Positions 1,195 through 61,913 of a stretch of DNA of 64,000 nucleotides are shown here, in pieces. Position 1 is the first letter of the stretch, and each line of letters begins with the position of its first letter. The stretch lies in NCBI GenBank assembly GCA_977018835.1, contig OZ361258.1, positions 248,001 through 312,000 on the forward strand, in the 5' to 3' direction. This stretch comes from Minutocellus sp. GHC0000111 (lineage: Eukaryota). Position numbers and translations under genes: made by a program. The notes beneath the pieces were generated by a model. That model made no database searches, had not been told where the DNA came from, and saw only the letters and a list, made by a program, of their open reading frames with translations.

Positions 1195-3049
1195 TCAATT
1201 CTTTGTTGCGGCAGCATGAAACTGCAACGATTTGGTCTGGTTGTTGAAGTGAAGGAGCAACCCGACTGCATCCTCCTCATTGTTGTTTTTCTTGGGTAGA
1301 GTAGGCACCTCAAGGCCGGGAAGATCCGCCATACTCTCAGCCGATACCTCCTCTCTTCTTGGTTGGGTTGGAGTGACAGCGGTAGAGTCATCCGACGAGT
1401 AAGATATGATAAGATTGGGCTGACACAACGGGCTGGACGTGGTCAAGGTTGAGAGAGCCTCGGCGGCGATGGCATCATCGTCACTGAGATCCGACCGAAT
1501 GGACTTGATGGTGCTTGCCAACGTCGATGGAGGGGACGGAGCACTACTGCTCATCTGATTCTCCAGGGCAGGAGGTGGCGTGGCCGTCGACACCTTGCGG
1601 ACATACTCGGCCTTGGCGTAGTTGGGGGTAGTACCGGCACTCGCCGCCTCGGCACGGGCCCGCTTCCTCTCCCGGCTCTTCCGGGCGTGCATGCGGTTGC
1701 GCTCGCGGCGCATGCGATCGAGTTCGTCCGGAGTGCACGTGCTGCGATCCTTGGACAGGAGGTCGTAGTCGATATCGTCGATGGCTCGAGCCTTGGGGGA
1801 CGGCGGCTCCCTCGATCGCTTCCGGCCGACCAATCTGAGCCCACTTGCTCCCCAGCTTTTGATACGTCTCGATGATGGCATCGTCCTCGACCCTCGTCCA
1901 CGCCCCCTTGTTGATGCTGGGATCCAAATGGTTGTACCACCGCTCCCGCCACTGCTTGCCCAGCCGTCCCGAGTCGAGTTCCTTGGCCAGAAAGCTCCAA
2001 CGCTTGACCCCGTGCTCCGTCACAAGTTGGACGAGACGTTGGTCTTCTTCGGCCGTCCACGGTCCCTTGACCAGGCCGGGACGCAGCACCTTCTGCCAAC
2101 GGTGGAGACATTGGACGTCGGAGCGATTGGGGAGGGACTGGGCAATCTTCTTCCAGTTCCGGGCCGAGTGGGCGGTCACGGCCTGGCGGAGGATGGCATC
2201 CTCGGCCTCGGTCCATTTGGATGGAGACGAGGGTGAAGAGGATGTTGATGGTGGGGAGGAGGTCGTAGAGGTCGGTGTGGAGGGAGATGATTCCTCGGCC
2301 TTTGTCTCCTGGAACAAAGAGCGTGGCGGTGTGACCGGGACGGAAACGGTAGGACTTGCACTTGCCGGCTGTGGCGATGGGGTGGCCATCCGAGCCAGCA
2401 GCCGTTCCTTCTTGGACTTCGGTGGGGATGCCACTCTTCTCGTTGGAGCTGGCTTGTCGTCACACATCTTCACGGCTTCCACCTTGCTGCTCGCCGCGGA
2501 AGCTTGCGATTCGTCGTCGCATTTGCTGGCAGCAGAGGGAGCCAGATCGACCAGCTCGGAAGACGAGCTCGAGGCCGAGATGCTTGGGACGATGGGCGGC
2601 GGGGAGGCGCTGCTGGCAGTGCTTGCGCTGGTCACCGAGACAGTCGCCGAGGGCACGGCGTCATGTGACGGTGTTGATCGAGGAGGCATGTGCGACATAT
2701 GAGGAGCCGGCACTTGGCGCGGGCTGGGCGCATGGTAATGTCTATAAGCATGGTGAGGACTGCGAGGCTGATATCCGGCAGGATGATGAGGACGAGGCGG
2801 CATGCCATGATGATAATGGTGAGGGTGATGAAGGTGAGGGTGAAATCCAGCCGGAGGTGCCGGGTAGGTGGCATAGGGCGACGGTCGACGCGCCTCGTGG
2901 TGAGGAGGATGCCTCGGAGGCTCAAATTGCTGCTCGTAACCGGCGGGATGGATCTGCTGGTGGTAGTGATGGTGATGCTGCATCATGCGAGGATCGGCCG
3001 GATGGTGAGGCTGATGATGGGGCTGGTGGTGAGGAGGATATCCGTGCAT
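1195..3049 (-). pseudogene. 3R-Myb transcription factor with a C-terminal bZIP-like basic region; R3 truncated by an internal deletion/frameshift at ~1831
   Basis: ATG 3049 (MHGYPPHH), His/Pro-rich N-terminus, R1 (KWTEAEDAIL...RSDVQCLHRWQKVL), R2 (GPWTAEED...GKQWRERWYNHLDP). R3 stops at GSKWAQI. A different frame then gives DELDRMRRERNRMHARKSRERKR and ends at 1195. Confidence 0.75.
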
Positions 3050-3840
3050 GATGTTATGTGCAGTTTCGAGCGTATCTACCTTGCGGCTTTCCAAGTTGGT
3101 GGATATTTGTTCCAATTATGCTTGCTCCCAACAATATTGTGACGGTGGATTTGTGATGGATGCCGCGCGAGACGATCGAGGATTTGTTCTGTGACTTTGC
3201 GCGAAAGTAAGCGATGAATTAATTGTTGAAAGTCGGCACGAAATGCGTTGCTCTTCTTCGAGATGATCAAATGATAATACTGCTGAGATCTTTTCTTTCT
3301 CTTCCACCACCAGCGAAAAATGTGAGCGGGGGTGAAGGAAGGAAATTTGTGATCGGCACAGCGGATCGTTTGGCAGGTCCGGTAGAGGCCAACAGCGAGT
3401 ATGAGCGATGGGCGCACACTCGATCGATTGGCGCGTTGGTCGCTTGTGACTCGCAGAAGAGCTCGGCCGGCGCGCCAGATTTGCCCGGCCGGCGCGCCCA
3501 CTGTGACGTTGGACTCGATCGACTCATTGGAATAGGAGCAAAATGCACATAAAAACTCGCACCAGACAGACCGAAAGACTCCTTCGTTCTTGTGCAACAG
3601 CGATTTTGTATCAAGGAGATTTGCCGCCACCGTAACCGCCCAGCAAGTCGTCTGCAACAACAGAAAAGCGTTCGGGTCGGCAACAAGATCCGCAGGCGGC
3701 ACGACCAATAAGTGGCATTTTCCGTTCGCTCACTGATTCAAGGCATGTAGCACCTGGTCTTGATCGGCAATACATGTTGATTTTACCGTATCTATCTTTC
3801 CGCGTTAGAAGTGGCAAAAGTAGCAACCAAGAATCCAGCG

Positions 3841-5528: not shown

Positions 5529-8500
5529 CTAGGCATCCTCCTTCTTTTCATCCTCGACGGTGTCAAGCCAAGCCTCGGCCTGGTTATACTTCTTCTCCAC
5601 GAGCTTCTTCAGAGCTACGTCTCTCTTGGCAACGACGCCCCAGGTGTCCGCCTGAAAGCGCCGCTCATCTTTCATTTTCCTGAAGAAGTTGACGCTACCA
5701 ATGTGATCTAAACCTCCTGCAGCGATTGATGTTGCCCGAAGCTCGTCAAAGACATCCTCCGCCATTTGCGAATCACCGCAAATATAGTAATGACACGCGG
5801 GGTCGGACAGCAATGCCCAGATCTCGCTCCTACGCCTCGCAACGACATTCTGGACGTATTCTTTTGGCTCATCTTGAAGTCTGCTGAAAGCAACCTGCAA
5901 ATCCGTAATGATTCCATCATCTGCCCACTTTCGCATGCGAGCAGAGTGGAGGAAATCATTTTCGGCCCGGCATCCAAAGAAAACCATGCACGGCCCAAGC
6001 CTGACACCTTCTGACTTGGCATGTTCACGAGCCTGGAGGAATCCAAGCATTGGAGCAATGCCAGCACCCGGACCAATCATAAAGACAGGCGAAGAATAGT
6101 CTTTTGGAAGTCGGAAAGTACTCTTTGTGATGCCCATTCGCACATATGCCCTTGCTCCTGCTGATGGAATGTCTGCCACGATATCGTCATCACCGACCTT
6201 TGGTTCCACGGCTTCATCACTGACTTGCGCAGGAGTACTTCTGGCCAAGAAGTGAGACGAGACGCCATTTCGAAACTTATCAGTCGATTTGTGTGTGATT
6301 GTGAGCTTTCCAACCGATAGCTGTAGCTTGGTTGGAAGCATTTCGCTGGAAGAGGCGATACTGTAGAATCTTGGCTTGAGACGAGGAAGGACTTCAACAA
6401 CATCAGCGAGACCAAGCTTCGAGGTTGTTACGGGGTATTCTGACAAAAGGGAGGGTATGGTAACAAAAGACTCCGTTAGAGAGCGGACGGCCTTTTTGCG
6501 TGCCTCTTCTCTGATCAGTGCTTTCGATGTCCCTTTTTCCTCTTCTGTTGCAAGATCTGCCGACTCGACAATCTTCTCCAAAACAGCTTCCAGCGCCTCA
6601 GTTTCTTTGACTGCCGCTTCAGTGTCATCGCTTGATGCACGTGCAACCTTGACAAGTCGATCCAAAAGAGCGACATTTCCGTCATCCTGTTGCGTGGCCA
6701 AATCCAACTCAAGAGCGAACAGGTCACCGACACGCATTGTAGAAGCCGACAGAGAAGGGCCGTCTTCGATGACGATGTCAATCCATTGGCTGGGCCTGAT
6801 ACCAAGACAGCGGCACATCTCAAGAGACAAAGATGGATCATTCATCGGCATGATTCGAGCATGATCCCCGGTTTCGTAGACAAGGTCGCTCGCTCCTTTT
6901 TCTCCACATATTCCGTTAAGATCGAATTCAAGGAAGCGAGTGCTCCTAAACATTCGCTTCGATTCTTCGTCGGGAAAGCTGACGAGCTCATCATTCATCG
7001 TTACACGGCACAATTTCTAGCCATTCGCAAGGTAGCGGGCGACTGCTCCTGCGCTAGGATCATTAGGAACAAGCCTCTTCTTTTCGTCGATGGCTGCGAC
7101 GACCTTATCATCATCGTCGCCGAGCAATGATACAGTTACCGGGTCCACTTCTACAGCATCTTCTGAATCACCAGAAGCTACCAAAGCTTTCTTTTGCTGG
7201 AGGTCGAAGATGGAACCGATCGATGATATCCATTGGAGCACGGCATCTTCTTGACCGTTGACCTCGTCCCCCTTTGCAAGAGGGAAGATCTGTTTGCCTC
7301 CTGCCGCGGTGAGAGCCTTATCAAGATCGATTCCTGCCTGGCAGTAGTCTGGATAGACTGTAGAACCAATACCCATTACAGCAAAAGGCATGCCGGCCAG
7401 ATCATCGTTTGATAGAGTCTTGAGAAGGGCGAAAAAAGCTTCGGCGGATGGAGGAGGGTTGCCCTCTCCAAATGTGCTGGTTATGAAGAGTACAGCAGAA
7501 TATTCCCCGTCGCCAACAAGGGAATCCGAGAGTAATTCTTTTGGGTTATACTGTTCGCAGCTTGCGACTGTCACTCGGAGAGGTCGTAGCATCTTCTTCG
7601 CCTGATACGCATACCCTTCGGCAGTTCCGGTAGTCGAGCCATGGAGAATCAAGATCTTCTCAAAGCACATGGCATCGTCGTCAGCAGATGCTAGCAGCTC
7701 ATCTTCGGGTACCGAGCTTTCCTTGCGAACAGCAAAGATCTCGGCCTGATAATCGTACTGTGGCTCAACATAAAAGTCTCGCATCTCGTGATGCCAAATC
7801 GGCATGGTTGATCCTCCGGCAGCAGGAACGACCCAGCTCCTACAAGTAAAAAATGATGATATGATAGACGTATTGGTATTTGTTTTTGTGAGATAGGGGA
7901 TAGAAGAAAGCAAAAGATGAAATGAAGCTCGCTACAACGTAAAACTCACCATTGAGCAGGGACCTCACGGCCAAGCTTCTTCTCCCTCATGTCATGGGCG
8001 AGGAATTGAGACTGAGCAGTGACGTGGTCAACAATGGAATGGCCATCTCGGCGGAAACTGTGCATTACCGCCTTGTTCGTTTCCAACATGACATGCTCTC
8101 GCCAGAACCCATCCTCGTCAGTAGGGTCTACACCGATGGCTCTGGCGATGGCCTCCATCTTGTTCATGCGACCGGCCTCAAGCAAGTCCCTCGTAATTTC
8201 ACTTTCCATAAACCAGCCGTTGAAGGGGCAGCAGGTATATTCGAGACCACCAAGCCTTAGCGTGAAGGAGGTCACCGTAGGAACAACACACCAACGCAAC
8301 CTCAGCTTGTCAAACTCGGGATATTTAGGATGCGTAATCATCGTGACTTTATGATATTCCTTTGGCAGCTCAAACATCTTGGTAGTCCCAGTGATCGGGT
8401 CCTCAATGACAATGGGCAAAACATCAAATGCCGTTCGAGGTACGGGAGGCTTCCATCCAAAGCTTATGACTTCGTCGGTGTACTGCTTGTTCGCACCATC

Positions 8501-11208
8501 CCCCATCAAGGTGCCATCTTCGTTCTCGTAACAGGCAAATCGAACTAGCTGCGCGTTCCAGAACCGCTGTCCCATCCGCGTGCCGGGCTGGCGAGGACGA
8601 AAGACGGTCATAACAGCCTTTAGAGATCCATCGGCCGTTGCAAGTCTCTGGTGTTCCAAGCACTCGGCAAACATGTGGTCAAGATTCGTCACGTGGCGCC
8701 GATCTCGAACAAGGAGGGTATTCCAAGAGATGCGGCCGACGCACTTGGCGGAGTTTCTCCACGACACTCGAGCGCCGTGGACGATTTCCTCCTCCGTATG
8801 GGTGTAGGTGCCCCTCGTGCGGATCTCGGTCTCAATATCAATCTTGCGTTTGGCCAAGTAGGCATCGCTCCACTTGAGCTCCTCCTTGCATTGTTCGGAC
8901 CACTCGAATGCCTTGTGCAGGAGCCGTTCCGAAACGAAGGAAATGCGCGTGGTGATGAGAACTGTGCGGTTCACCAGAGCCATCCACAGCTTGGCAAGCG
9001 CCTCTCCCTCCGGCGTTCCATCGCCATACCCAGGAACAGCCTCGCGAAGGGTAGCATCCAAAACGTCTCCGATGGCGGCATAGGTAAAGACGGGAATCCG
9101 CTTGTTGTCGTGGATCTTGCCAAGATGTCTCAACACCGGCAATGCCTTGTCAAAATCATTGAACACGGACACCAGCAGCTCGACCGCATCGAACAGGTGG
9201 CCGGCGAGGAAGTCCATGTCGGTTCGGCCAAAGTACGGCAGCACCTCGGGACACTTGCGGAACAGCTTGCGATAGAAGAGCACGCCGGATCGGACCTTGT
9301 CGGCGGCCAATGGTTGGAAGGATTCCTGTAGCAGCTGACAATTCTCCTCAGACTCGAAGAGGTCGTCCACCTCCTTGATGGCCAGCAACGCGGGCTTCAT
9401 CACGTGGTACGTCCAGAAGCGGTAGGCGCAGGAGTTGGTCCCCTGCGCCAACAGCTCGGCGTCATTCTCCTCCAGATAAGGGTTGACCCGGCTCATGGTC
9501 AGCAGGAAGAGGGCCCGGGCCTCCTTCCAATGACGGGGCCTCATCCCCAGCTGGGCGAACTGCTGGAATCCCTCCTCCAGGGTGCGGAAGGGTGGCTCGA
9601 CGTCCCCCCGCAGGGGCGACGCGGCGTACGACTCTCTGGCCACCACCTCGGTCTTGCGGTCGAGATTCCGCACGGCCATGTCGATGACGGAAACGAGCAT
9701 GTCGTACGCCAGCTCGGAGGGCACCGCGCCCAGCATCTGGAGGAGGTCGGGACAGCGCAAAAAGAGACATTCGACGAAATGCTCCCCGGTCATGCCGATC
9801 CATCCCAGGCACTTGTTCCACACGTCCTTCATGGCGACGCGGTCCTGGGGGGTCATGGGGTCGGGCGTGCCGACGAGGGACGCCAGGAGGGCCTCGTCGG
9901 CTGCGACCTCGGCGGGATCGCGCTTGCGGAATTCGAACTCGGCCGCCGTGGCCAGCAGCGGCTTCTGCCTCTGGCGGGAGGCAATGTCGGCACCCTTGGT
10001 GGCGGCGAGGAGGGCATCGGTCCGTCGGTGAAGACAATGTCGGACCGGTCAAAGTCTGGATGGACACGGGTGCGGAGCCACGCCACGTCCTGATCGGGGA
10101 CGGCAAAGGCCTGGAGGGGGTGGATGCACACCGGCTGGACGAAGGAGGGGGACCACGAGGACGGCGCGTCATCGGCACTGCTAGTGCATGTAGCATGCTT
10201 GCGCTCCTGCATCTCCACGACCAGCGCCTCGTCATCTTCCAATCTGAGGTGGAGGCCGTTCCAGCTGGGCTCGCTGCGCTTGGACAGCTCGATGGTTCGC
10301 AATTGGCCGTTGCCATTTCCCTTCTTCTCATTCTTGGCACTCACGGCACATGCCATCCCACGGAAGGTGCGGACGCTCTCCCCCCTCTCGTCGAGGTTGG
10401 AACTTCGCCGTGCCGCCAGGCAGTCGAACCGGATCCCCGTCAATTCGAGCCGACACCCGTCGGGGATGGACATGAGGTGCCGCCGTTTCTCGGCCTTTCC
10501 CTCTCAGCCGCTGCCTCCTCCTCCTTCGTCGTTGCCGTCGTGATCATTCTTCGACCGGACCCGGCCGAGGTTGGCCAGATCGGTCACGTCGAGACTCGAG
10601 GCCAGGACCTCGAGGCTCCTGGCCCCGCTGAAGGGACAGACGCCCCCGCCGCCGCGGGAGTTGACGTTGTGCACGGTGCGCGTCTTGGCACTGCTACTAG
10701 CAGCAGGCGTCTTGGTCGTCGGCAACCTTTTCTCGTCGTTGGGGGCCTCCTTCTGCGCACGTGTCAATGCACTAGCACATGTGTTGTTGCTTGCCCCACT
10801 AGCAGATCTAGTGCCGCCACCCTCAACGCCGCCGCTGCCAAAGGGGCAGGAGGCTCCCACGGCAGCGGCGGCAGCGACAGCCGTGCCTTCCCTCCCGGCA
10901 TCAGCAGCATCCCCGCCATCGGCCGTCTGGCGCGTCTTCGTCGAAGACGGAGCAGCCTCGTCGTTAGTAACACCACTGCTACATGTAGCGCTGCAGCTGC
11001 GGTCGGCCCCTCCTCGTCCAGGTGCCGATTCGGGCAGGTTGTAGTTGCATGCGCATGCACGAGCATTTCGGCCCAATGCATCGCTGCTACATGTAGCAAT
11101 GGCATTGCAATTGTTGGTCCCACCTCTGGACTCCGAGGCAGCCGCAGCCGGTGCCGCCGCCAAGGGGGCAGCCGATGCGGCAGCAGTGGTGGACGCGCAG
11201 GCTCCCAT
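5529..11208 (-). CDS. NOS: Multidomain nitric oxide synthase (C2-like, pseudoglobin, globin, NOS oxygenase, flavodoxin, FAD/NADPH reductase); disrupted as assembled
   Basis: Oxygenase: WRNSAKCVGR (heme Cys 8741-8743), PFNGWFMESE, IVDH, and PAQW|SWVVP across GT-AG intron 7840-7949. Flavodoxin: HGSTTGTAE, TSTFGEGNPP, GDE. Reductase: PRFYSIASS, GPGAGIAP, FFGCR, YICGD. Lesions: in-frame TGA 10504-10506, frameshift ~10022, in-frame TAG 7017-7019. Confidence 0.9.
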
Positions 11209-11221
11209 GCATGTGCAGTGC

Positions 11222-11244
11222 GTGTGTGTGTGTGTGTGTGTGTG
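11222..11244. repeat. (GT)n microsatellite immediately upstream of the NOS start
   Basis: About 11 GT units. Confidence 0.9.
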
Positions 11245-11856
11245 CCGGTGCTCTTGTTGGCTTTCTAGCTCGAGCTAGAGCTGCGCAGTAGCAACAGGGC
11301 GGGTGAACGGCCTCGTGCGCATCTGCTTCTTGCTGTGCATGGTGGCAGCAACGAAAAGGGAACCGGCATCAGCATGTCATGCGCATGCGCATGTCGTCCT
11401 GTCCTGTCCTCGGCCGGCAGTTGAGGGGCGCTTTCCTCCTAAAATTCCGCGCATCATTTGGTCGAGCGAGTCAAAATACTGTAAGGGGTTTGAGTTTGAG
11501 CACAAAAAGGGGATCCCACCCCCATGTGAAGAAGCACATACACCTAAGCTTGCGTTTGAGACGGCCCGTGCCGCAACATAACAAGCGCCAAATCCAGCAC
11601 ATCTCGTGATCTCGTGATCGTGCCCCCTCCACCGACGGGAAGATACGCGCGGTACCGCCAGCACGGAAAAGACATAGGGCACCCCTACCTCGCAGCTGAA
11701 TTGTGCCCCATCATCCGATCCCATCCCGGGTGGCATCTGGTGATCGGGAACTTTGGTCTTCCTTGCAACGGATTCCTACCACTTGGATACGATAAAACAA
11801 TCAAAATTCAATCGGAACCGAACGAGAAGGGAAGGTCAAGGAAGAGCCTCGGAGCA

Positions 11857-14165
11857 ATGGTCAAACCCGCCACGAGGACCGGCCTGACCGCCAAGGCAAA
11901 TGCCGCGGAGGCGTCTGATGAGGTGCCAAGCACGATAAATGGCGGAGAACAGACTCGAATCACCACCGGCGTTAGCAAGAGCCAACGGCCTCCGGGCATC
12001 TATCCCAAACCGAGCGGCAGGTGGTTCGCCCAGGTCCGACGGGAGGGGAAGAACCAGTACCTCGGCACGTACGCCACGATCGACCAAGCCGTCGCTGCTC
12101 AGTCCGACTTTCTCCAGCAGCTCGACCGGGGAATTTCCGTCGACGATGCCAAATCGAACGTGTATACGCCGATCGACACTGCGAGTCAGGGGGCGAAGGA
12201 CACCTCCAACTCCAACGTCACGTCCGACCGTCCGTACCCCATGGGCATCTACAAGAAGCCCAGCGGCAGGTGGCAGGCCGGCATCCGGCACGGGGGCAAG
12301 GCTCACCATCTGGGCACCTTCGATACCATGGAGGAGGCCATTGCCGCCCGCGGCCAGGCCAAGATGCGGTTTGAGAAAAAAGACCAGGCAAAGGCCGAGT
12401 CAACCAAGATGGCCAAGGCCGACGAGTCAGTTGGCCAGAGTCGAAAGTCGGACGGAGGAGTCAAACGACCGTATGAAGATATACCCTCCGAGGATGGCTC
12501 GCAGCCCAACGATCCGTGCACCGACGCCACGTCGGTCATGAGCGACGAAAGTGCTCACAACGTTGCCAAGTCCGAGGAGGGTGGTACCACCAGCAGCATC
12601 GGCGCCAAGGCCGTTACCGACCCCGACGCGCACACAGACACATTTCCATCCGCCGACACTAACACGGCCAGGCGCCACAGCAAGCGCCGTCCGAAGCGGT
12701 CCAAGATTGACATCATGGAGGAGTTCGAGGCCAAGTCGGAGCAGTGCCAGGTGCGGAGGGTTGCTCACGCGAAAGCAGACGATGCCGAGGAGGAGGAGGA
12801 TGTGTCTACGGTCGATGATGAAGCGGGTATAATGGAGGATGCGGCTTCGGATACCAAGAGTGGTTGGAGGGAGGCCATCGATAAGTCCACCGGCAAGCCG
12901 TACTACTATAACACTGCCACGAACGAGGTTACATGGGACAAGCCCACCAGTCTGTGTGATGCAGTCAATCGCAAGTCGGTGGGCCACGGGGGCAAGCCTG
13001 TCCGTCAAGTGGGCATTACTCTGCGTCAAGATCAGGGAAAATGGGAGGCAAGGACCTCCATTGGACAGTGCAAGTCGAAATACATTGGAATGTTTGCGAG
13101 TGCCGAAGATGCGAAAACGGCGTATGATATTGTACGAAACGCCCTCTACGAATGCAATCTTCCCATGGACGATATGGAAGGACGCTACGTTATTTTTGAG
13201 GCTGCAAAAGCTGAAGCGTTGGAGGCTGTTTCCGACCAACGAGCTACGGTCCCAGCGGAGCTAGCGAAGATGGAGGAATCAGAGAACGAAGATTACAGTT
13301 CTGACGAAGAAGATATCGGCGAGGATGGCAAGTGGAGAGAAGCTTTCGACAAATCGTCAGGCAAGCCCTATTACTATCACGTTGTTACCAAGGAGGTTAC
13401 CTGGGAGAAACCCGCTTGCTTTGGTGCACTGCCCCTGTCGTCATTGAAGATGTCGGACGATGGGCGGAATCAGCATTCAGGAGCCTCTGGAAAAGGACAT
13501 CCGAAGTGCATTTATCCAAAACCTGACGGAAAATGGGTGGTGCAGGTAAAAGGTATGTATTTTGGTACCTTTTACTCCCTGGAAGAGGCATTGGTGGCAC
13601 GTGACGCTGCTTTCGCTGACACCGCTGATTACACGATGAAACGTCCGGCCACTAACAAGAAGAAGTTCAAGAAGGAGAAGATTACAGCCAGCCAAAACCA
13701 CCAAAATCACAACTCCACGTGGACTGAAGAAGAGGACCAACGCCTTCGCGACCTTGTTGCACAGCAGCAACAGAATCGGAAATCCATTAGTTGGAGTGCA
13801 GTTGCCAAGGAGTACGGCTCGTCGCGCACTTCCAAGCAGCTGCGAGAGAGGTGGCTCAATATCCTTGACCCTACTGTGAAACGCGGAGATTGGACCGAGG
13901 AGGAAACTGCCCTTGCGATTCGTCTGCAGAAAGAAATCGGAAACAGGTAAATAAATGATGTTGCCTCAATTCATGCATATTATCGAATAATGCGTTCTCT
14001 CACAAATTCATAACTTCTCTACCTTTTTCCACCTATGAATCGAACAGTTGGGCCAAAATAGCAGCTGAGCTCCCTGGCCGCACTGCCAATTGCGTCAAGA
14101 ATAAGTGGCATGGTAGCAAGAAGCTACGACGTGAGTCCCAAGGTACCCATCAGCGCGTTGCTTAG
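11857..14165 (+). CDS. Transcription-factor-like protein: 4 AP2-like, 2 WW and R2R3-Myb domains
   Basis: AP2-like GIYPKPSGRWFAQV...YLGTYAT and GIYKKPSGRWQAGI...HLGTFDT. WW GWREAIDKSTGKPYYYN...TWDKP and a second similar copy. Myb WTEEED...KQLRERWLNILDP. Removing intron 13947-14047 completes R3 (GNSWAKIAAELPGRTANCVKNKW). The 3' end could be longer if GTGAGT at 14131 is a donor. Confidence 0.85.
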
Positions 14166-14841
14166 CAATATTACTACATGTCCTTGCTCGAGGAGTCGAT
14201 GTGGTATCTGATCTATGATATTGATGATACGATGGTATTCCATTTGGGTATGAGGTTGCACGCTGTACTAGTGGTCTCATCATTCTCCAGAACCGTCGTG
14301 CTGGCATCAACGCTAATGAAAACCAGCCGCGAAGAAGATGGAGGCGAATTGGAAGTTTGGCCGGCCTTGTTACAACTTTTTCCCCTTCGACGAGCTGCAA
14401 GGATATTCCTTCATAGTATGCAATGGTGAGAAGCTACACCTATAAGATCTACGCAGTTATAACTATTTCAGATATGCATCACGGTACACGTCCCGGTACA
14501 GCTGTGTACAGTGTAGCCCTCTGCTCCTCGCGGCTGCTGCCTTCCGGCTCGGCGTCCGATTACATCCGGGTCTCTTTGTCCGTGCCTTGCCGCCTCATTT
14601 TTCAGCACATCTTGTGTCAGGAAAGGATACGGAAGTCAAATTCCTGCGCTTCAATCAATACCTCGTCGCCTTGGCCCTGCCATTGCGCATCTTTTCCTTC
14701 ATCATATTGAAATTTGCATAAAATCGATTTCGTTTGGCCAGCGCATATCAATTCGGCTCAATAATTCTCAGTTCCAAGCAAACGACGCCAACCTTTTGTG
14801 CGGAAGGTTGTAGACGCGAGGGCTGCTACTCGTAGGTAATC

Positions 14842-17245
14842 ATGGATGCTTTCGGCAAAAGCACTGGCCGCCTGCCGTCGGGGTCATTCTCAACATTGGC
14901 TGCGACGAAAGCAAGTCCCCCAGCGTTTCTGAAGGCAAGTCTGGCCGGTACTAATAATCGCGGCGGAACGTCTCAGGCTAGTGCGGGTGCCACCGGTGCA
15001 TTCGCCGACGGCTGTCAGAGCGGAGATAAAATCAGTACTGCCACCGTCGCAGCACCTAAGCAGGTGCCGGCAGTGACGGCAACGTAGCAAAAAGATACTT
15101 CGCCCCTCAATAGTGAGTGGAGGATGGCCATCGACCTCTCATCGTTCAGGCCATACTACTACCACACTGTCACCAACGAGGTTACCTGGGACAAACCAAT
15201 GACTGCTAGAAGCGGCAAGGAATTCGATCATGGAATTTGGGCCGAGGCTGTGGACGAATCTACTGGACGGTTTTACTACTATCATACCATTACTGGACAA
15301 GTAACGTGGGTGAATCCTTTTGCGTTTGCGCAGCAGAACTCTTTGAAGAAGTTGATGAAACAAATCTCTCGCAGCGTTCCTCACGGCACCTTACTCGGCA
15401 GTGATCCGTCCCAACCCAATGGCATCACTCCATTCAGAGGCATTGCGCCGATTGGAGCATCCGGGAAGTGGAAGGCAAAGACAAGTGTTCTTGGCAAGAA
15501 CCAAACGATTGGGGAATTTAAAAATTCCGAAGCGGCGTCGATGGCGTATGAATCTGTCAGGTTGGCATTGGATCGATCGGAACTTCTATCCAACGACCCC
15601 ATCCGTCTTGAAATATTTGAAGCCGCAAGAGTCGAGGCAAGAGACAATGCAATGGTGATGGGTTGTCTAGAGGTATCCAAGCCAGTAGTCCCTCTTTCTC
15701 TCCCTCTTCAGACCACTGCAGGCTCCAAGAGGAAGGTCGGGCCAGATTCCAAGTCTGAGCAAGTTCCGAAAAGGGTTTACAAGAGTAGGGCGAACAAAAA
15801 ATCTGGTCTGCCAAAAGGAGTCTACATGTTCAATTCAAAACAGGGCGCCAGATACCAGGCTAAAGTGTTTGTTGTGAAGAAGGATCGAACAATTGGCACG
15901 TACGATACTTCTAAGGAAGCCGAGGTAGCATATCAATATGTCCGCAGGATTCTTGATGAATCAGATCTGCCCCCTTTGGACGAGGATCGAATCGCATTAT
16001 TCGAAGGGGCTAAGGACAAGGTTGGGAACAAATCAACCGGCGCATTCCAGAAGGGGGTTTATCAGAACAAAACGACTGGGAATTGGTGTGCACAGATCTC
16101 AGTGAATTGCAAACTGCGGACCATTGGTACGTTTGTATCTTCCGAGGACGCTTCTCATGCATATGAAATAGTTGCGAAAGCTCTTGACAAGTCTGGACTC
16201 TCCAGACAGGACAAAAAAGCCGTGGAAATTTTTGGGATGGCGAGAATCCAGGCACGAGGATCTTTGCCGCCGGTTGAGAACTTACCACGCGGGGTTACAA
16301 AACACACATCTTCGGGCTCGATATCTGGCAAAGACTGTTACAGTGGGCCGTTCAATACTGCCGGAGAAGCTCAACGTATGAGTATGGTTCGGCCTACTAG
16401 TCTTTCCAAAAGACCTACCGGTATTTCACAAAGGAAATCGGGAAAATGGGAGGTGCAGATTAGTGTTGTTGGCAGGACCAAGCACATTGGATTGTTTGAT
16501 AGTATTGGAGCGGCTATAGAGGCGCGCGAAACTGTTCAAGCAGCCCTTGCAGAATGCGGTCTTTCACCAAATGATCCAAAGCGTTTTTGATGTCCTAGAA
16601 TCTGCAAGAAATGAGTTAGGGCCAGGTAAGCGCATCGCTTTGAAAAAGGATCAGCTACCTACTGGTGTCTTCAAAAATGGCGATCGGTTCAAGGCGCAGA
16701 TAGGTATATCCGGCAAAACCCGTTGTATTGGAAATTTTAGCACTGTTGATGAAGCTAGCATTGCTTATGAATCTGTTGCGAAGGAGCGTGTTGATGTCGG
16801 GGCCGCCAAAGATGACGAAGAATTTGATGCTAGATTCAAATCTGCTCAGACGAAAGCCATTGCTGCTGCCGCTCAGGCGAGCTCTACAAGTCTCGGTCAG
16901 CTTACGTCTGATGTTGCTGTAGGACCAAAGAGGAAGGCAGGATCCGATGTGTCCGAGCGATCAAAGAAGGAGAATGGTTGGGGTTGGAAGGCAGGTGGTC
17001 TTCCGACCGGTATTACGTACGCCGGAACAAGCAAATTCGATGCCGATATTTCTGAGAATAACAAAAAACGACACATTGGTTCCTTCGAAAAACTCGAGGA
17101 GGCTGTGGCTGCATATCAATTTGTCGAAGAAGCGCTTGAAGACTCAGGTTTTCCTCCCTCGGATGATGGTCGCATTACCGTCTTTGAAAAAACCAAAGAA
17201 AGGGTTCGAAATGCTTCAACGAATATCGCAGTGTCCGATGCTTGA
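14842..17245 (+). CDS. 2 WW plus ~7 AP2-like repeat protein; disrupted as assembled
   Basis: WW SEWRMAID...YYYH...TWDKP and WAEAVDE...TWVNP. Repeated PxGV...W/Y/F-x-A-x-I...IGxF units. In-frame TAG 15085-15087 and an extra T in a T-run at ~16586 join three ORFs into one. Confidence 0.8.
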
Positions 17246-40982: not shown

Positions 40983-43900
40983 TTAAGACCAATTCAGGCT
41001 CGAGGCATCGGTGCAGTTCTGCAGCTTGACCTTGGCACCGGCTTCGGGAGTGCTTTGGGCATACGAGATGCACAGATTGGGATCGCGAGAGCGAAGTACG
41101 CCGCCGGACTCACCCCGGAATCGTTGCTTGCGACTTCGCTTGCAGTTGGAAAGCTTGATGCTGGATCCTTGAAGGATGCCCTTAAGACGCCAGCTGTGAG
41201 TAGTTACATACATCAGCAATGCCGATATTGGAAGGAAAGAGAGAAATGATGAGATGATAAGCCATAAGTCGAATCAAAATCAAAATCAAAATAATACATT
41301 CTCAGCAAACACATGAATCAAGCAACAACTTACCAGAGGCTAGCACCGTTTTACTGCTCCTTGGTCCGAATGCGCCGTCTTCCATCCATTCTCCACAGCA
41401 TACTGTTGTTATTCTTGTCGCACTCAAACAGTTTTAGGATTTTCCCCGGCATCGGCTTGCCACCGGCAATGCCCACGCAAAGATTCTTCTCCTCGTCGAG
41501 ACTGATAAGCTTGAAGTCGTGACGTGCCGAGTCCCGTTCGACGAGAAGGCTGATGACCAAGGAAGCCCCTCCAGCATTGCTCCTTAGATAGATCATTTCA
41601 GGCATCTCTTCGTTGACGGTGAGAAGCAATGGGCCATTTTGAGCGCATCCACAATCATTGCCCGGTAAAGATAGTGCTGGAGCACCAACATCGGCGCTGC
41701 CATGAACGGAAACCATGCTGGAGTCCCTGATGGTAAATCGATATGTTACACCATGCTTCAGCTTGATGTCTTCTGGCGCTATAGGACTAGTGCCGTCAGG
41801 CTCAAAGAGATTTATATTGCCGGTAGCCGGGTCGACACGAACAATGAATTAATTGTCACAGACATATCCTTGCCACTGTACGTTTCTACAGACCCCACCG
41901 GGGTCGCACATTGCCCCGTTATTTCCTGGAAGGCACTGGTGACAATAGTAACCACCGAGAAGAAGAGCATCAAAGTTCAAGTCGCTCTCTGGCTCACAAT
42001 CAGTGCGGTTGGCTAGGAGGGTGGCAGCAGCGTCCATGCCAGCCATACCTGCTTGAACGTTTGGGTCATCGGAAGCATAGCCAGTTCCAACATGGACCTG
42101 TTCAAAGAGGGTAGAGTTCGGAGAGATCTGATTGGCGGTGCAAGTATAGTTGGTGGAAACTGAGAAGTCATTGCCGAGAGCTGCGGTGGCAGTAGCTACA
42201 GCGTCTCTGAAGCCTTCCGTCAATCGGCTAGCGTACTCAGTAGGGCAGGCTGTAGAAGGCTTGACGGCGAGCAACGCGTTGGTTTCGTCATCAACAAAGT
42301 GAAGTATCTTCGCCTTTGGTGAGAAGGACATTCCGTTGATCGTCTTGTAACCGGTGTCGATACCACCTACCATGGCACCTGACTCAACATCAAAGGCATG
42401 AATTTTTCCAGTTCCACGTTCGGCCACGAAGAGCCGAGTTCCGTCGGGAGATAGGGCCAGTCCAGTGGGTGTGTCCAAGCCCTTGGCAAATACGCGCTGG
42501 CCAACGCATTCCCAGATGCTATACTCAAATGAAGGGAGTCTGTTCGAGAAAATGGGGTACTCCTCTCTCGCGGTGCGGGCATACGTGCCGCTATCGGCGT
42601 CGACCACGAGGATCGTTCCATCTCCCGGGTTGGCAATGTAAATCTCCCGGCGGGTGGGATGAACAACCATGCCCGCATGGACTCCATCATCTCCCTTATG
42701 AAGCTTTACTTCAGGGTACCTTCGGATGGCGGCTACGGAGTGATCCATCGACCCAGGACCGTGGGGTTGCTGGAAATCGAAACGGACTAGCTGACCCTGT
42801 TTTCTATCGCCCGTGCTATCAAAGGCCCAATACACAGTACCATACGCCGTTTCCACTTCAGGGTCATGCGCGATGCCAATACAAGAAGGCGATTCATGCA
42901 ACATGTCGGCGTGAAGGAAGTAGCAAGGCTCCGCAGCCGAGTCACAGGGTTCACCTAATCTATTGACAAGGTTGCGCTTGGCGGGATCAGGGTCAGTATC
43001 ATAAAGAGTTGGGCCCATGAAGAAGTTCGCCTGCAGAGGAGGGTGGAGTCATAAAGAGATAGGGCGTTGTATTTGTGCAAACAGTGTGAGAGATGCATGT
43101 ACAAGGCCAAGACAAACCGAAAAAATTACGATATACTCACCTCCTTGGACTCCATGTAGTCGTTAATGTTGTCATTGCAGACCGCAAAATATTCAAAGGT
43201 ATCCTTTTGGGCATCTCGACCAGAGTTCGAAACCATGTTGAAGGAAAGAGCCGTGGCGTTTATCATATAATGGTAGAATCCTCTATCTCTCCGGCTGAAA
43301 TCTGTCTGAAATTCTGTACCAAGCGCAGCGACAATGCTGACACTGTGATTGGCACCGTTGGCCACCCACGCTTCTTCCCCGACGCTGGGGTTGAATTCCC
43401 TGCCCTCCGATCGTTTACCAAGATGAAGGCCGGGGGTCGGATGGAACGCAACGTCCCGCGGACTGTCGAAACCAGTCGCAACCTCCACAACCTCGGCACC
43501 ATTAAATTCTGGGATGCACACTGGAAGACACAGAGATGAACGGGCAGAATCCAGAGTGCTGACATCGACATTTGACGAGGCTAGGAGGATATTATCCTCT
43601 CCGTCTGGACGGCATGCCCGCACTTCCACGGGCGACGGGCAGGATTCCCTCTGCGCCGCTTCGGGACCCACAATAGCTTCCCCCTCGTCGGTAACCGTGG
43701 CCTCGGTGGCCAAAGCCGGGCGGTTGTCCACGACCGTCCGCCAACGGAACTGCATACCGTCGGTTATTCCACAGTCAATGCTGCACGGTGACCACTCGGA
43801 AAACTCTCCAACGATGCACTTCTGCTCGTCTTCTGGCTTCGGTTCAGGTTCGGGCTGGGTAGTAGTTTCGGTCTCGGTCTCGGGCTCTCCCGATGAAGGC

Positions 43901-58402: not shown

Positions 58403-61186
58403 CTACAGGCTATACCCTCCTATTTCTGTAGGCTGTACATGCTCCTCCTCATCCATCCAGGCATATTTCTTGGTTTTGGCAAGACCGGAACTTGTAAGGT
58501 AAGCAATGAATGATGCGGGATCATCTTCTTTCAAATATGTGTCGGGTTCCGATGTGATCTCGCCGTTCTTCCATTTGACTCGGAACAGATACTCACCTTT
58601 TCTCTTTCTGTCCTTGGTGTGACCGCGTATAGAATCAAACCCATATACAATCTCGTCATCTTCAGCAGCCACTTCATCGGTAGCCTGATGCGATGCATCT
58701 ACTTGCGACCGTTCTTTTTCTCTTTCCACTGCGAGCTCATCCTCGTGTTTGTGCTTGCTGGCGTTGAAATGGTTTTTCTCGATGATGATGTCACAGAGCG
58801 CACAATACCTATAGTTTTCTCGGTATATTAGGTTGTTCTGACCTCTACTTCGACAGGCAGCATTTGAACATTTCACTCGCATCCCATGCGCCGCATTTGG
58901 TGGGACTGCAACGTACGCTCTGCCGTGTTCTTGAGGTAGGGATGGATCTTTCAAATGGCAAGGGAAACGTCTTTCCCCATTCGGCATTATTTGGATCTTT
59001 TGTAAAAGAAGGGCCCTTGTGAAATGAGTGCGGCACATGTATCGACGTATCGGACCGCCAGCATTTCGTGTACAGCCAATTACAACACATCGTCTCACTC
59101 CTTTTCTACCAGGCTGAAACTGGGACTGTACTCCTGGGATCTCCTCAAAAATGCCATGTAAGTTGCCAAGCATGCGTCTTGGTCGTCTTTTTGTGCCCTT
59201 GTCTGCTGTTGTGCAGAAATTATCTTCAAGCACGGCACCAACGGCGGTGAAAGCGGCGTTGATGGCTCGGTCCTCGGAGAGTCTCTTTTCTTTGAATTTA
59301 TTCACTAACAAACAATTGGAACAGTACCATTCTCCCTCTGGGACCTCTGTTATTTTCGGGACATCCTTGGTGCAGGTAAGATGCGTGGCCGAATCACATC
59401 CATCACACAACAGCATAGGGACATCGGACGATGGATCTTCGAGTTCGTTACATTCACAGCACAGTGATAGCATATTGGCCCCTTCTTCCTGATTTGTGGA
59501 ATCAGGACGACGAAGCGTATCGGGATTGTGTAGCAAATGGTCACTCAGACCTAGTCCATCAAAAGCGGGCTTTGCCGCTGCTCCATGACAAGTCTCTTCA
59601 TGTCGGCACGCTTCCTCAAAATTTGCGAATTTAACCGATTGGCATTTATCGCACAACCAGTAGCCCTCTTCAGACCCATCTGATCCTATCACTTCCCCTC
59701 TATCAACTACACGTACAGCGGATGTGCTGCTCTTGTCGTAGACCAGACGGCCATCCTTTTCGATGATGCCAATACTTTGGCACCCATCTGCTAGAAACTC
59801 ATGATACTCTTTACCTTTTCTTTTACCTCGCCAGCTTGGAAGATTCTCTCTGAAGGTCTTGATGTGACTGGGCATTTCTTTGCATTGCATGAGGTGCTCG
59901 AGTGAATAGCGAGTTAAGGAAGAAGATATTCCGGAATAATAGTTTGGATAGGTAACCGCGGCAATGGTTCTTGCGGAAAGGGGGAGATGAGCACAATGGA
60001 CGCAGCGCAAACCGACCTGACCTAAAATGATATGGCGGCCTGTTCTCCCTTTCCGATCGGCTACATCTCTGCTGGAGGCTGCAAATCACTCGAGCTGGCG
60101 GTGGACTAGACACCTCATTGGGTTCAGGATATTTTCATCGCCGGGTTGGAAAACGGGTTTGGCAGTGGGATCGTTCAACGGATTACGGGCGCCGTGGTTG
60201 TAGTTGACATCGTTGACGAGCAGTTCGGTATCCAAATTTGTGGCAGGAGAGGTAGGTACTTGAAAGTCCCCTGAACTATGAGTAACGACGGCGATGGAAT
60301 CGGCATCCTCACCGTGATAATGCTCCGGAGCTGCGGGCATAAATACATCACCATCGTTGTCGAAAGGATGATCAACAGCCATTGCACCACCTTGGCTACG
60401 GTCATCATATTCGTCACCGCCGGCCCAAAAATTATCATCATCGTCATTATCATCAATCACCGGAGCTGCCATGCGTCCAGCGTCCTCGTCCGCGTCCTCT
60501 ACCAACTTGCGCACGAGGATATCCAGAGCAGTCTCAGTCTCGTCTTCGTCATCCGATACGACATCTGGCCCGACGTCACCGCGACGGAGGACGTCCAACC
60601 TACCGAGATCCCGAACAATCCTCTGGACGCGCCAGTCGACTGCTGGTGGTGCCGGTTTTGCCTTCTTCTTCTTTCTGAGACGATTTGTTACATCTACATC
60701 TGCGGCCGATTTGGCGCTCGAATTCTTTGTGCCGGCAACATCTTCTCGGGAAGTATCTTCGTCCAGATGATCTGCAGCTCGTTTCCGAGGGGCTACATCG
60801 TTTGGAGCAGCCTGTCTTTGCATTTCCAATTCTGTTTTTCCTTTCCTGATTTGGCTCTTGGCGGCGGCCGGCTTCTTCTTCTTCTTCTTCTTCTTCTTGG
60901 CGGTGCTGCTGGCCTGCTTGAAGATCTTCCACGCCCTGTCCTCGTCGCCCTCCACTATGCTACCTGCCAGGCCGGCGAGGATGTTCTGGAATCGTCGAAC
61001 CTCGGCCGTGCTGCGGAACTTTTTGCCAGTGAGGGGCGAGTACCAGTACCGGTCCCTGTTGCCGGCGGTTTTGGTACCCCTGCTTGCACGCGTCACCTCC
61101 TCCGTCGTCCAACCCTCGCCGACGTCGGGTGCCGGTTTGCGGTTGGCGGCGAAGCGCTGCCGGGGTTCCAATTCCAAATGGGGCAT
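58403..61186 (-). CDS. Chromatin-associated multidomain protein: MBD-like, PHD finger, extra zinc fingers, chromo-like domain; one in-frame stop
   Basis: GWTTEEVTR...DRYWYSPLTGKKFRSTAEV (MBD-like); CCECN...LLCDGCDSATHLTC...PEGEWYCSNC (PHD); SIRGH...YLFRVKWKNGEITSEP (chromo-like). TGA 60086-60088 is in frame with the downstream ORF. Confidence 0.8.
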
Positions 61187-61913
61187 GACCAGCGCCTTTG
61201 TGCTTTTGACTATGCTATCAACACTTCCCTTTTGACTCGAGACCAAAAAAAGGAATTGCGCTAGCCGGGAATCGCACCCGGGGCTCATGAATGCTCCATA
61301 ATAAGGCGGGATACCGCGAAGCGGTCCGGCTCCTTGCTGTTATGTTGGGAATCATGAATTTTACTACTAAACCACTAGCGCTTGAACGGAAACCACTAAA
61401 CTGCAAAACCAAGTCAAGGCAGTGGACTTCAATTTTTCAGCGCTACGTGCGAACATTGAAATATATAGAGGCTGCAATATAAAAAAGAGAGACCATCACA
61501 AAGCGCACACGCAAGCCGAGCGCATCAGCGCGGCAGCAGCAGGCAGCAGCAGCCGGTGGTCATCGCCTTTCACTACTCGTACAAAGGGCGTTGCATCAAC
61601 CATTAGCTGGCACCGGTATCTTTTGGACTTTGGTTGCGATTTGGAGATTCCGGCACATCCCGTGCTGGCTTTTTTGCTTTTGTGTCTGCTGAGCGGGGAG
61701 GTCTTTGCATTTGGCGCGCCCGCCACACAGCAGCAGCCAGAGCAGCAGCACAGCATAAGACCCACCGCCGCGCCGAGAGCTGCCGGTGCCAGAAACAAGA
61801 TCGTCCGCTGCTAGCATTATTGGAGCGAGAGCCCCGCCTGGCCCGGATCGCATCCAAATCGAGGCTGCATTTTTGGTTGTTGTTTTTTGCTTTGCTTGCG
61901 CCGGAGAGAAAGA

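What the first reader, a model, noticed from the sequence alone, without database searches (positions are those of the whole stretch)
5529..11208. Eukaryotic, intron-containing NOS with cyanobacterial syNOS-type architecture (C2, pseudoglobin, globin, NOSoxy, reductase)
Seen: four stretches of reading frame plus one spliced junction join into a ~1850-aa chain with clear NOS oxygenase, flavodoxin and FNR motifs. Upstream lie two globin-fold repeats (~9856-9400, ~9360-8940) and a beta-rich C2-like segment (10473-~9920, ...ELSKRSEPSWNGLHL...LVVEMQE). Known: animal and Ostreococcus NOS have no globin, whereas syNOS of Synechococcus PCC 7335 is globin-fused, Ca2+-dependent, calmodulin-independent and oxidises NO to nitrate; as I recall it was also reported to have C2 and pseudoglobin domains. 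Inference: this is a nuclear, domesticated member of that class, potentially a single-chain arginine-to-NO-to-nitrate enzyme. Diatom NOS transcripts have been reported, but I do not know of this full architecture being characterised in a eukaryote.
Basis: partly seen in the sequence, partly recalled or inferred. Interest (0 to 1): 0.92.

Follow-up and report, generated by a model that had tools for sequence, protein, structure and literature searches.

The report
Broken diatom globin-fused nitric oxide synthase
This is a broken copy of a gene, likely from a diatom, for a nitric oxide synthase built like the cyanobacterial enzyme syNOS; sequencing runs hold an unbroken version that is predicted to make nitric oxide from arginine and convert it to nitrate under a likely calcium switch, a type already reported in diatoms except for that switch domain.

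Summary
Observation confirmed. The minus strand at 11208-5529 encodes C2, pseudoglobin, globin, NOS oxygenase, flavodoxin, FNR and a syNOS-type tail, with one 110-nt GT-AG intron. The predicted C2 fold matches syNOS residues 14-130 best (Z 12.3); the two globins match syNOS at TM about 0.8. The window copy is dead: two premature stops and a 16-nt deletion. Contigs of 3 of 3 DNA-type runs laid read through all three, giving 1861 aa; intact orthologues occur in Detonula and Thalassiosira minuscula. Whether the lesions are a real null allele or specific to this assembly is open; neighbouring genes are also broken. Novelty was overrated: cyanobacterial-type globin-NOS in diatoms is in print since 2015, and this scan found one on another genome. 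Not found in my searches: that centric diatoms and Tribonema keep the C2 domain, with the animal-type Val in the active site. The oxygenase tree puts them inside the syNOS-type clade but rejects a sister relation to cyanobacteria (AU p=0.016). New member of a known kind; no eukaryotic member appears to have been assayed.

The parts
10507..11208 (-). N-terminal 234 residues, Ala/Gly/Ser-rich, two CPF motifs (10848, 10638); start MGACAS resembles a myristoyl/palmitoyl signal (motif recalled; start codon not proven)
   Evidence: No Pfam hit; orthologues match from the second CPF on; the 3 indels listed for run X5 in this stretch are all multiples of 3
10504..10506 (-). Lesion 1: premature TGA (codon 235)
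   Evidence: Contigs of 4 of 4 runs laid read CGA here
10024..10482 (-). C2 domain of syNOS type; its last strand is cut by lesion 2
   Evidence: 38-40% identity to Detonula and T. minuscula; AlphaFold model pLDDT 70.5; best of 48,161 chains is syNOS 9q05 residues 14-130, Z 12.3, rmsd 2.4, next C2 domains Z 8.7 or less
10024..10025 (-). Lesion 2: 16-nt deletion causing a frameshift, with a 4-nt repeat at its two ends
   Evidence: 3 of 3 DNA-type runs carry 16 more bases here; with them the frame is open and aligns with orthologues
9860..10023 (-). Linker L1 between C2 and pseudoglobin
   Evidence: Aligns with orthologues; L1 defined in PMC12922734
9360..9859 (-). Pseudoglobin domain (heme-less in syNOS)
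   Evidence: Aligns to syNOS 174-339; model pLDDT 90.9, TM 0.80-0.83 to syNOS over both globins
8940..9359 (-). Globin (NO dioxygenase in syNOS) with CD1 Phe (9232-9230) and proximal F8 His (9112-9110)
   Evidence: Pfam Globin E 0.0018; aligned to syNOS Phe380 and His422 (residues named in PMC6104048)
7950..8939 (-). NOS oxygenase, exon 1 part: heme Cys (8743-8741), Val at the Val/Ile site (8275-8273), FNGW Trp, substrate Glu (8200-8198); Phe in place of syNOS Tyr716
   Evidence: Pfam NO_synthase 1e-108; alignment to syNOS. Roles of the Cys and Glu are recalled
7840..7949 (-). Spliceosomal intron, 110 nt, GT-AG, splitting a Trp codon
   Evidence: Sequence; orthologous transcript proteins are continuous across it. 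No RNA contig crossed it
7662..7839 (-). End of the oxygenase and a short acidic linker with no calmodulin-type basic helix
   Evidence: Pfam NO_synthase positions 327-360; linker sequence; same layout in syNOS
7203..7661 (-). Flavodoxin (FMN) domain
   Evidence: Pfam Flavodoxin_1 7.8e-26
7017..7019 (-). Lesion 3: premature TAG where orthologues have Tyr
   Evidence: 3 of 3 DNA-type runs read TAC; Tyr in Detonula and T. minuscula
5640..7016 (-). FNR module (FAD and NADPH binding)
   Evidence: Pfam FAD_binding_1 1e-18, NAD_binding_1 3.6e-15
5529..5639 (-). C-terminal tail of syNOS type and stop codon
   Evidence: Aligns without gaps to syNOS up to residue 1466; Trp1440, Tyr1458, Trp1464, Leu1465 kept, Glu1454, Asn1457, Arg1460 not

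Best explanation
The locus is a nuclear, intron-containing gene, likely of a centric diatom, for a six-domain syNOS-type nitric oxide synthase; the window's copy carries two premature stops and a frameshift and is likely a null allele, while sequencing-run contigs hold an open version that is predicted to make NO from arginine and oxidise it to nitrate under a likely calcium-sensing C2 switch. Shown: domain order, folds, key residues, the three lesions, the open reading in runs, intact orthologues. Inferred from syNOS (PMC12922734, PMC6104048): a homodimer passes electrons NADPH to FAD to FMN to the oxygenase heme of the other subunit, which turns arginine and O2 into citrulline and NO with a pterin; the FNR part also reduces the globin heme, which turns NO into nitrate; without calcium the C2 domain blocks the flavodoxin docking site, with calcium it moves to the globin, so one switch would set NO release against NO removal without calmodulin. 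Inferred here: the animal-type Val would favour NO release more than in syNOS. The window allele would give only a 234-residue low-complexity peptide.
For: syNOS 174-802 at E 1e-157; C2 fold, top hit syNOS C2, Z 12.3 against 8.7 for the next, Foldseek top rows mostly C2-containing chains; both globins TM 0.8 to syNOS; a profile of 17 bacterial-type N-termini finds the C2 of T. minuscula, Tribonema and Detonula (E 2e-5, 6e-5, 1e-3 for 200 sequences); by alignment the syNOS C2-oxygenase pair Arg57/Glu523, Glu568, Lys37 (as Arg) and Arg81 are kept; tail kept; intact orthologues of 1782 and 1807 aa, 72% identical over the globins and oxygenase; runs X1, X2, X5 read through 3 of 3 lesions, giving 1861 aa with one final stop; tree: window with the two diatoms 100/100, with Tribonema 100/99, inside the pseudoglobin clade 100/99. 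For a real null allele: lesion types are a CpG transition, a transversion and a repeat-flanked deletion; a second window gene has a premature stop where 9 of 10 homologues checked read Trp (the tenth was not matched by the pattern); contig depth around lesion 3 fits a mixed site (159-166 expected against 173-177, observed 166).
Against: No activity, calcium binding or transcript of this gene was tested; the only RNA run gave four short low-depth pieces, and its library may hold DNA. No contig in 4 of 4 runs shows any of the three lesions, so the null allele is not seen outside the window; contigs drop variants, so this does not decide it. The depth model missed for a second contig (147-156 expected with all 13 sites mixed, observed 162). 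130 substitution rows and 7 indel rows were not shown; run X5 has two 1-nt deletions in FNR (6445, 6465), and X2/X5 have Pro at a conserved Arg. The C2 model used an alignment rich in bacterial homologues, scored pLDDT 70, and had no Foldseek hit under E 0.001; the window's C2 alone did not pass the bacterial profile. syNOS Lys35, Asn575, Tyr716 and tail residues Glu1454, Asn1457, Arg1460 are not kept. The host lineage rests on this gene's relatives, not on an independent marker.
Confidence: 0.72

Rival explanations
1. The gene is intact in the organism; the three lesions are specific to this assembly or to the sequenced sub-line, and there is no standing null allele.
For: No run contig shows a lesion, although X1 pieces are otherwise identical to the window over up to 1083 bases; several other window genes also look broken, as an error-rich assembly would give.
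Against: The lesions are substitutions and a repeat-flanked deletion, not homopolymer slips; synonymous differences cluster beside lesion 3; half-depth contigs at lesion 1 in 3 of 3 DNA-type runs mark a variable region.
Confidence: 0.3
2. The enzyme works, but its C2 domain is a structural relic that no longer senses calcium; regulation has moved to membrane anchoring or transcription.
For: C2 sequence identity to syNOS is 11%; no C2 was detected in 5 of 5 other named eukaryotic members (Epithemia, Sphaeroforma, Phalansterium, Rhynchopus, Paulinella), so the family can do without it; the calcium ligands are unknown even in syNOS (PMC12922734).
Against: C2 is kept in both diatom orthologues and Tribonema with docking residues; deleting C2 abolishes NOS activity in syNOS (PMC12922734).
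Confidence: 0.25
3. The gene came from a cyanobacterium (plastid ancestor or later transfer).
For: Full architecture is shared with cyanobacteria (10 GTDB cyanobacterial loci over the globins and oxygenase among the first 19 rows); earlier papers call this the cyanobacterial-type clade (PMC4648414).
Against: The same C2 architecture occurs in Spirosoma and a myxobacterium; the tree with ochrophytes and five cyanobacteria held together is rejected, p-AU 0.016; the ochrophyte clade sits with other eukaryotic and myxobacterial-type sequences at moderate support (92/87, 84/88). One domain, 41 rows, syNOS itself not in the tree, test run after I had seen the free trees.
Confidence: 0.15
4. The gene is being lost in this lineage: all alleles are under relaxed selection.
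For: 19 of 34 listed coding-region differences between window and runs change the residue; X5 has a possible frameshift of its own; NOS is patchy among diatoms (PMC4648414).
Against: X1 and X2 show no lesion in the listed pieces; indels in the N-terminal part keep the frame; at changed sites the run residue equals an orthologue residue more often than the window residue does. The 9:3 against 10:12 split of changes is not significant (p 0.15).
Confidence: 0.12
5. The upstream frames (N-terminal part and C2) are separate genes.
For: They are separate open frames in the window.
Against: Two diatom transcript proteins join C2 to the NOS in one chain; run contigs restore one frame.
Confidence: 0.02

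Closest known systems
syNOS of Synechococcus sp. PCC 7335 (PDB 9Q05, 9Q06, 9Q0X, 9Q0Y, 9Q15; PMC12922734, PMC6104048)
   Same: All six domains in the same order, no calmodulin linker, globin Phe and His, C2 fold and several C2 docking residues, two-helix-length C-terminal tail.
   Different: Nuclear gene with an intron; about 240 extra low-complexity residues at the N-terminus; Val for Ile at the NO-release site and Phe for Tyr716; tail lock residues changed; not sister to cyanobacteria in the oxygenase tree; the window copy is broken.
Cyanobacterial-type NOS transcripts of centric diatoms (Di Dato et al. 2015, PMC4648414; T. minuscula MMETSP0737 is listed in its supplement)
   Same: Direct orthologues: T. 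minuscula and Detonula confervacea, 72% identical over globins and oxygenase, 57-65% over the reductase.
   Different: The passages read mention the globin only; C2 and pseudoglobin were not yet recognised. Those are intact, this copy is not.
Tribonema minus NOS KAG5192610.1 (named in PMC12922734 as the most similar eukaryotic NOS)
   Same: Sister to the diatom group (100/99); C2 detected; Val at the NO-release site.
   Different: Its record ends a few residues after the last Trp, so it lacks the tail that the diatom proteins keep.
Globin-NOS without C2 (Epithemia; Pseudo-nitzschia multistriata PmNOS; Sphaeroforma, Phalansterium, Rhynchopus, Paulinella)
   Same: Pseudoglobin-bearing oxygenase clade.
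   Different: No C2 detected, separate branch; Epithemia has Ile. PmNOS was judged only from its first 290 residues in the paper's supplement and is not in my tree.
Animal NOS (Bombina nNOS in the tree) and Ostreococcus NOS
   Same: Oxygenase, flavodoxin, FNR; Val at the NO-release site.
   Different: No globins or C2, calmodulin linker, outside the clade. Ostreococcus NOS was not among the named rows.

Membership tests
syNOS-type multidomain NOS | NOS oxygenase with heme Cys, FNGW Trp and substrate Glu | tested here: met
syNOS-type multidomain NOS | Fused flavodoxin and FNR reductase | tested here: met
   split by a premature TAG in the window, open in runs
syNOS-type multidomain NOS | N-terminal globin with CD1 Phe and F8 His | tested here: met
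syNOS-type multidomain NOS | Pseudoglobin before the globin | tested here: met
   (fold and homology; lack of heme binding not tested)
syNOS-type multidomain NOS | C2 domain at the N-terminus | tested here: met
syNOS-type multidomain NOS | No calmodulin-binding linker | tested here: met
   About 26 residues, acidic, between oxygenase end and flavodoxin; judged by eye, no motif scanner
syNOS-type multidomain NOS | Extended C-terminal tail | tested here: met
   hydrophobic residues kept, three polar lock residues changed
syNOS-type multidomain NOS | Oxygenase inside the pseudoglobin-bearing clade | tested here: met
   100/99; 98 in the 207-row FastTree
syNOS-type multidomain NOS | Calcium-dependent NO synthesis and NO dioxygenase activity | not testable with these tools
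   Needs purified protein
Functional gene (this copy) | One open frame after splicing | tested here: not met
   Two stops and a frameshift in the window; met by run contigs
Canonical animal-type NOS | Calmodulin linker, no globin, grouping with animal NOS | tested here: not met
Cyanobacteria-derived gene | Sister to or nested in cyanobacterial sequences | tested here: not met
   p-AU 0.016 on the oxygenase alone, 41 rows

The most novel reading that the evidence does not exclude
Ochrophyte algae (centric diatoms and Tribonema) keep a complete C2-switched NOS, acquired before these lineages split from a non-cyanobacterial bacterium or an old eukaryotic pool. It is a calmodulin-free calcium-to-NO transducer, tuned by an animal-type Val for NO release and possibly membrane-anchored by N-terminal acylation, and it could be a direct source of the calcium-linked NO stress signal of diatoms that carry it.
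Probability: 0.3. Interest if true: 0.7.

Novelty: new member of a known kind. Interest (0 to 1): 0.42.

Why it matters
The enzymatic source of NO in algae is debated (PMC4648414, PMC8728061). A eukaryotic NOS that keeps the syNOS C2 switch would give diatoms a calcium-to-NO link without calmodulin and a built-in NO sink returning nitrogen as nitrate. Intact orthologues and a solved template make this directly testable. The C2, the tail and the Val refine the 2026 structure paper, which compared only Tribonema's tail. The class itself is known, and this copy is broken, which limits the surprise.

Tried and rejected
No whole genome is held for the window, so a second allele or paralogue in the assembly could not be sought. 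Pfam found nothing in the first 234 residues or the C2. A protein search with the Detonula C2 alone returned only its own cluster, 1 of 317 candidates. Foldseek gave no C2 hit under E 0.001; the wider aligner did. The protein atlas gave no answer. The RNA run does not cross the intron. An alternative intron at lesion 2 was rejected (only about 24 nt between GT and AG, and orthologues fill the gap). Stop read-through or another genetic code was rejected: runs and orthologues show sense codons. No complex prediction was sent, since C2-oxygenase would pass by likeness to syNOS. Literature searches: syNOS, pseudoglobin, C2 domain, NOS; diatom, NOS, globin, PCC 7335; 9 papers; 0 papers; 4 papers; NOS, diatom, C2 domain; 4 papers, two are the syNOS structure; 4 papers; none of the passages read reports a C2 in a eukaryotic NOS. 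Subscription papers (Picciano and Crane 2019, Santolini 2017 and 2019) were not read, and figure S11/S12 images of PMC12922734 and the bioRxiv supplements could not be seen; they may bear on the novelty claim. (null alleles in diatom haplotypes) was seen as a listing only and not used. Scan look-ups by place and by sequence were empty.
Full report
Observation. The minus strand from ATG 11208 to the stop at 5531-5529 holds five open stretches separated by a TGA at 10506-10504, a frame change near 10024, a 110-nt GT-AG intron (7949-7840) and a TAG at 7019-7017. Pfam finds the NOS oxygenase (1e-108), a weak globin (0.0018), flavodoxin, FAD- and NAD-binding domains. The middle frame matches syNOS residues 174-802 in one piece at E 1e-157, far above any animal or bacterial NOS (1e-68).

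Domains. A model of 9862-8900 (pLDDT 90.9, 32-row alignment) matches syNOS at TM 0.80-0.83 and then hemoglobins and neuroglobins. The second globin keeps the Phe and proximal His named in PMC6104048. A model of 10491-10024 (pLDDT 70.5, 21-row alignment rich in bacterial homologues) is a beta-sandwich whose best match among 48,161 chains is the syNOS C2 domain (Z 12.3, rmsd 2.4, 115 aligned), followed by other C2 domains at Z 8.7 or less. A profile of 17 bacterial-type N-termini finds the same region in T. minuscula, Tribonema and Detonula, but not the window's own piece at the 0.05 cut, so the sequence link runs through the orthologues. By alignment, Arg57 and its partner Glu523, Glu568, Lys37 (as Arg) and Arg81 of syNOS are kept; Lys35 and Asn575 are not (roles from PMC12922734). 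The oxygenase-flavodoxin linker is short and acidic. The tail aligns to syNOS residue 1466. The window, both diatom orthologues and T. minus have Val where 5 of the bacterial C2-type rows matched by the pattern have Ile; PMC6104048 states that Ile slows NO release.

The lesions. Intact orthologues exist: Detonula confervacea (1782 aa) and Thalassiosira minuscula (1807 aa), both from transcriptomes, 72% identical over globins and oxygenase. Eleven of 15 listed runs hold the stretch; four were laid. X1, X2 (organism A) and X5 (a sponge metagenome) read a sense codon at both stops and carry 16 more bases at the frameshift; the RNA run X9 covers only the first stop and also reads sense. With those three differences the spliced frame is 1861 residues with one final stop. 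No contig shows a lesion, but contigs drop variants. For a real null allele: the mutation types, synonymous differences next to lesion 3, half-depth contigs at lesion 1, a depth fit for one contig, and more broken genes in the window, one confirmed by homologues reading Trp in 9 of 10 checked. Against: the depth fit failed for a second contig, 137 difference rows were not shown, and X5 has its own two 1-nt deletions. I put a real null allele at about 60%.

Relatives. 36 longer homologues were found and 150 listed from the 50% library; 79 prokaryotic loci came from GTDB. Of 250 sequences with a near-complete oxygenase, 207 went into a fast tree after dropping 43 oxygenase-only loci and 41 into IQ-TREE. 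The window groups with the two diatoms (100/100) and Tribonema (100/99) inside the pseudoglobin clade (100/99), apart from Bombina nNOS and oxygenase-only bacteria. Epithemia, Paulinella, Rhynchopus, Phalansterium and Sphaeroforma fall on a neighbouring branch with no C2 detected; some records may be incomplete. Holding ochrophytes with five cyanobacteria is rejected (p-AU 0.016). syNOS, PmNOS and Ostreococcus NOS are not in the tree, many rows are unnamed, and no donor is identified.

Mechanism. By homology with syNOS (PMC12922734, parts 1-4 of 9 read), the intact protein would be a dimer making NO at the oxygenase heme with electrons from NADPH through FAD and FMN, and removing NO as nitrate at the globin, with C2 moving between the two sites on binding calcium. 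All catalytic and regulatory steps are inferred. The window allele stops at codon 235.

What is known. PMC4648414 (passages, supplement 1 part 5 and searches) reported cyanobacterial-type NOS transcripts in centric and pennate diatoms, T. minuscula included. PMC6104048, PMC7554344 and PMC8728061 (passages) state that globin-NOS like syNOS occurs in diatoms. PMC12922734 and its preprint define C2 and pseudoglobin and mention T. minus only for the tail. PMC7400543 and PMC10073611 (passages) mention Sphaeroforma NOS without a globin. Searches gave no passage on a C2 in a eukaryotic NOS. An earlier scan report on another genome filed a diatom-type globin-NOS as a new member of a known kind; my class rests on the papers.

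Verdict. A correct and well-read finding, a new member of a known kind. The added value is the C2, tail and Val in an ochrophyte clade and the demonstration that the window's copy is broken while an open version exists. Interest 0.42.

Noticed in passing
window 58406-61339, minus strand: PHD/MBD-domain gene with a premature TGA at 60088-60086; homologues at 95% and 84% identity read Trp through it.
   Followed up: yes
window 1544-3115, about 16585, about 19680, 41851-41853: More apparent lesions: Myb gene with a cut third repeat and a frame change near 1830; frameshift in an AP2/WW gene; possible break in an ankyrin gene; TAA inside an arylesterase-like gene. The window looks lesion-rich as a whole.
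   Followed up: partly
window 11560-16587, plus strand: Two neighbouring genes with AP2 and WW domains, the first also with Myb repeats; the first is divergent from the NOS start, about 350-630 bases away.
   Followed up: no
window 11191-11208; P0047; PmNOS: Gly2 plus a nearby Cys at the N-terminus in the window, Epithemia and Pseudo-nitzschia NOS resembles a dual acylation signal (motif recalled); absent from the Detonula and T. minuscula records.
   Followed up: partly
window 10848 and 10638: CPF motifs before the C2, shared with Detonula, T. minuscula and Tribonema, and present in linkers of some bacterial members; resemble heme-regulatory CP motifs (recalled).
   Followed up: no
window 6445 and 6465, run X5: Two 1-nt deletions in T runs in a depth-9 contig: a separate broken allele or contig error.
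   Followed up: no
P0025, P0030, P0064, P0195: Pseudoglobin-type NOS in an amoebozoan, an ichthyosporean, Paulinella and a diplonemid (group names recalled): the class is spread far beyond diatoms.
   Followed up: partly
L011, L012, L014, L015, L016: Alphaproteobacterial members (Amaricoccus, Rhodovulum) with both globins but no C2.
   Followed up: partly
window 11212-11256: CA dinucleotide repeat just upstream of the start codon.
   Followed up: no
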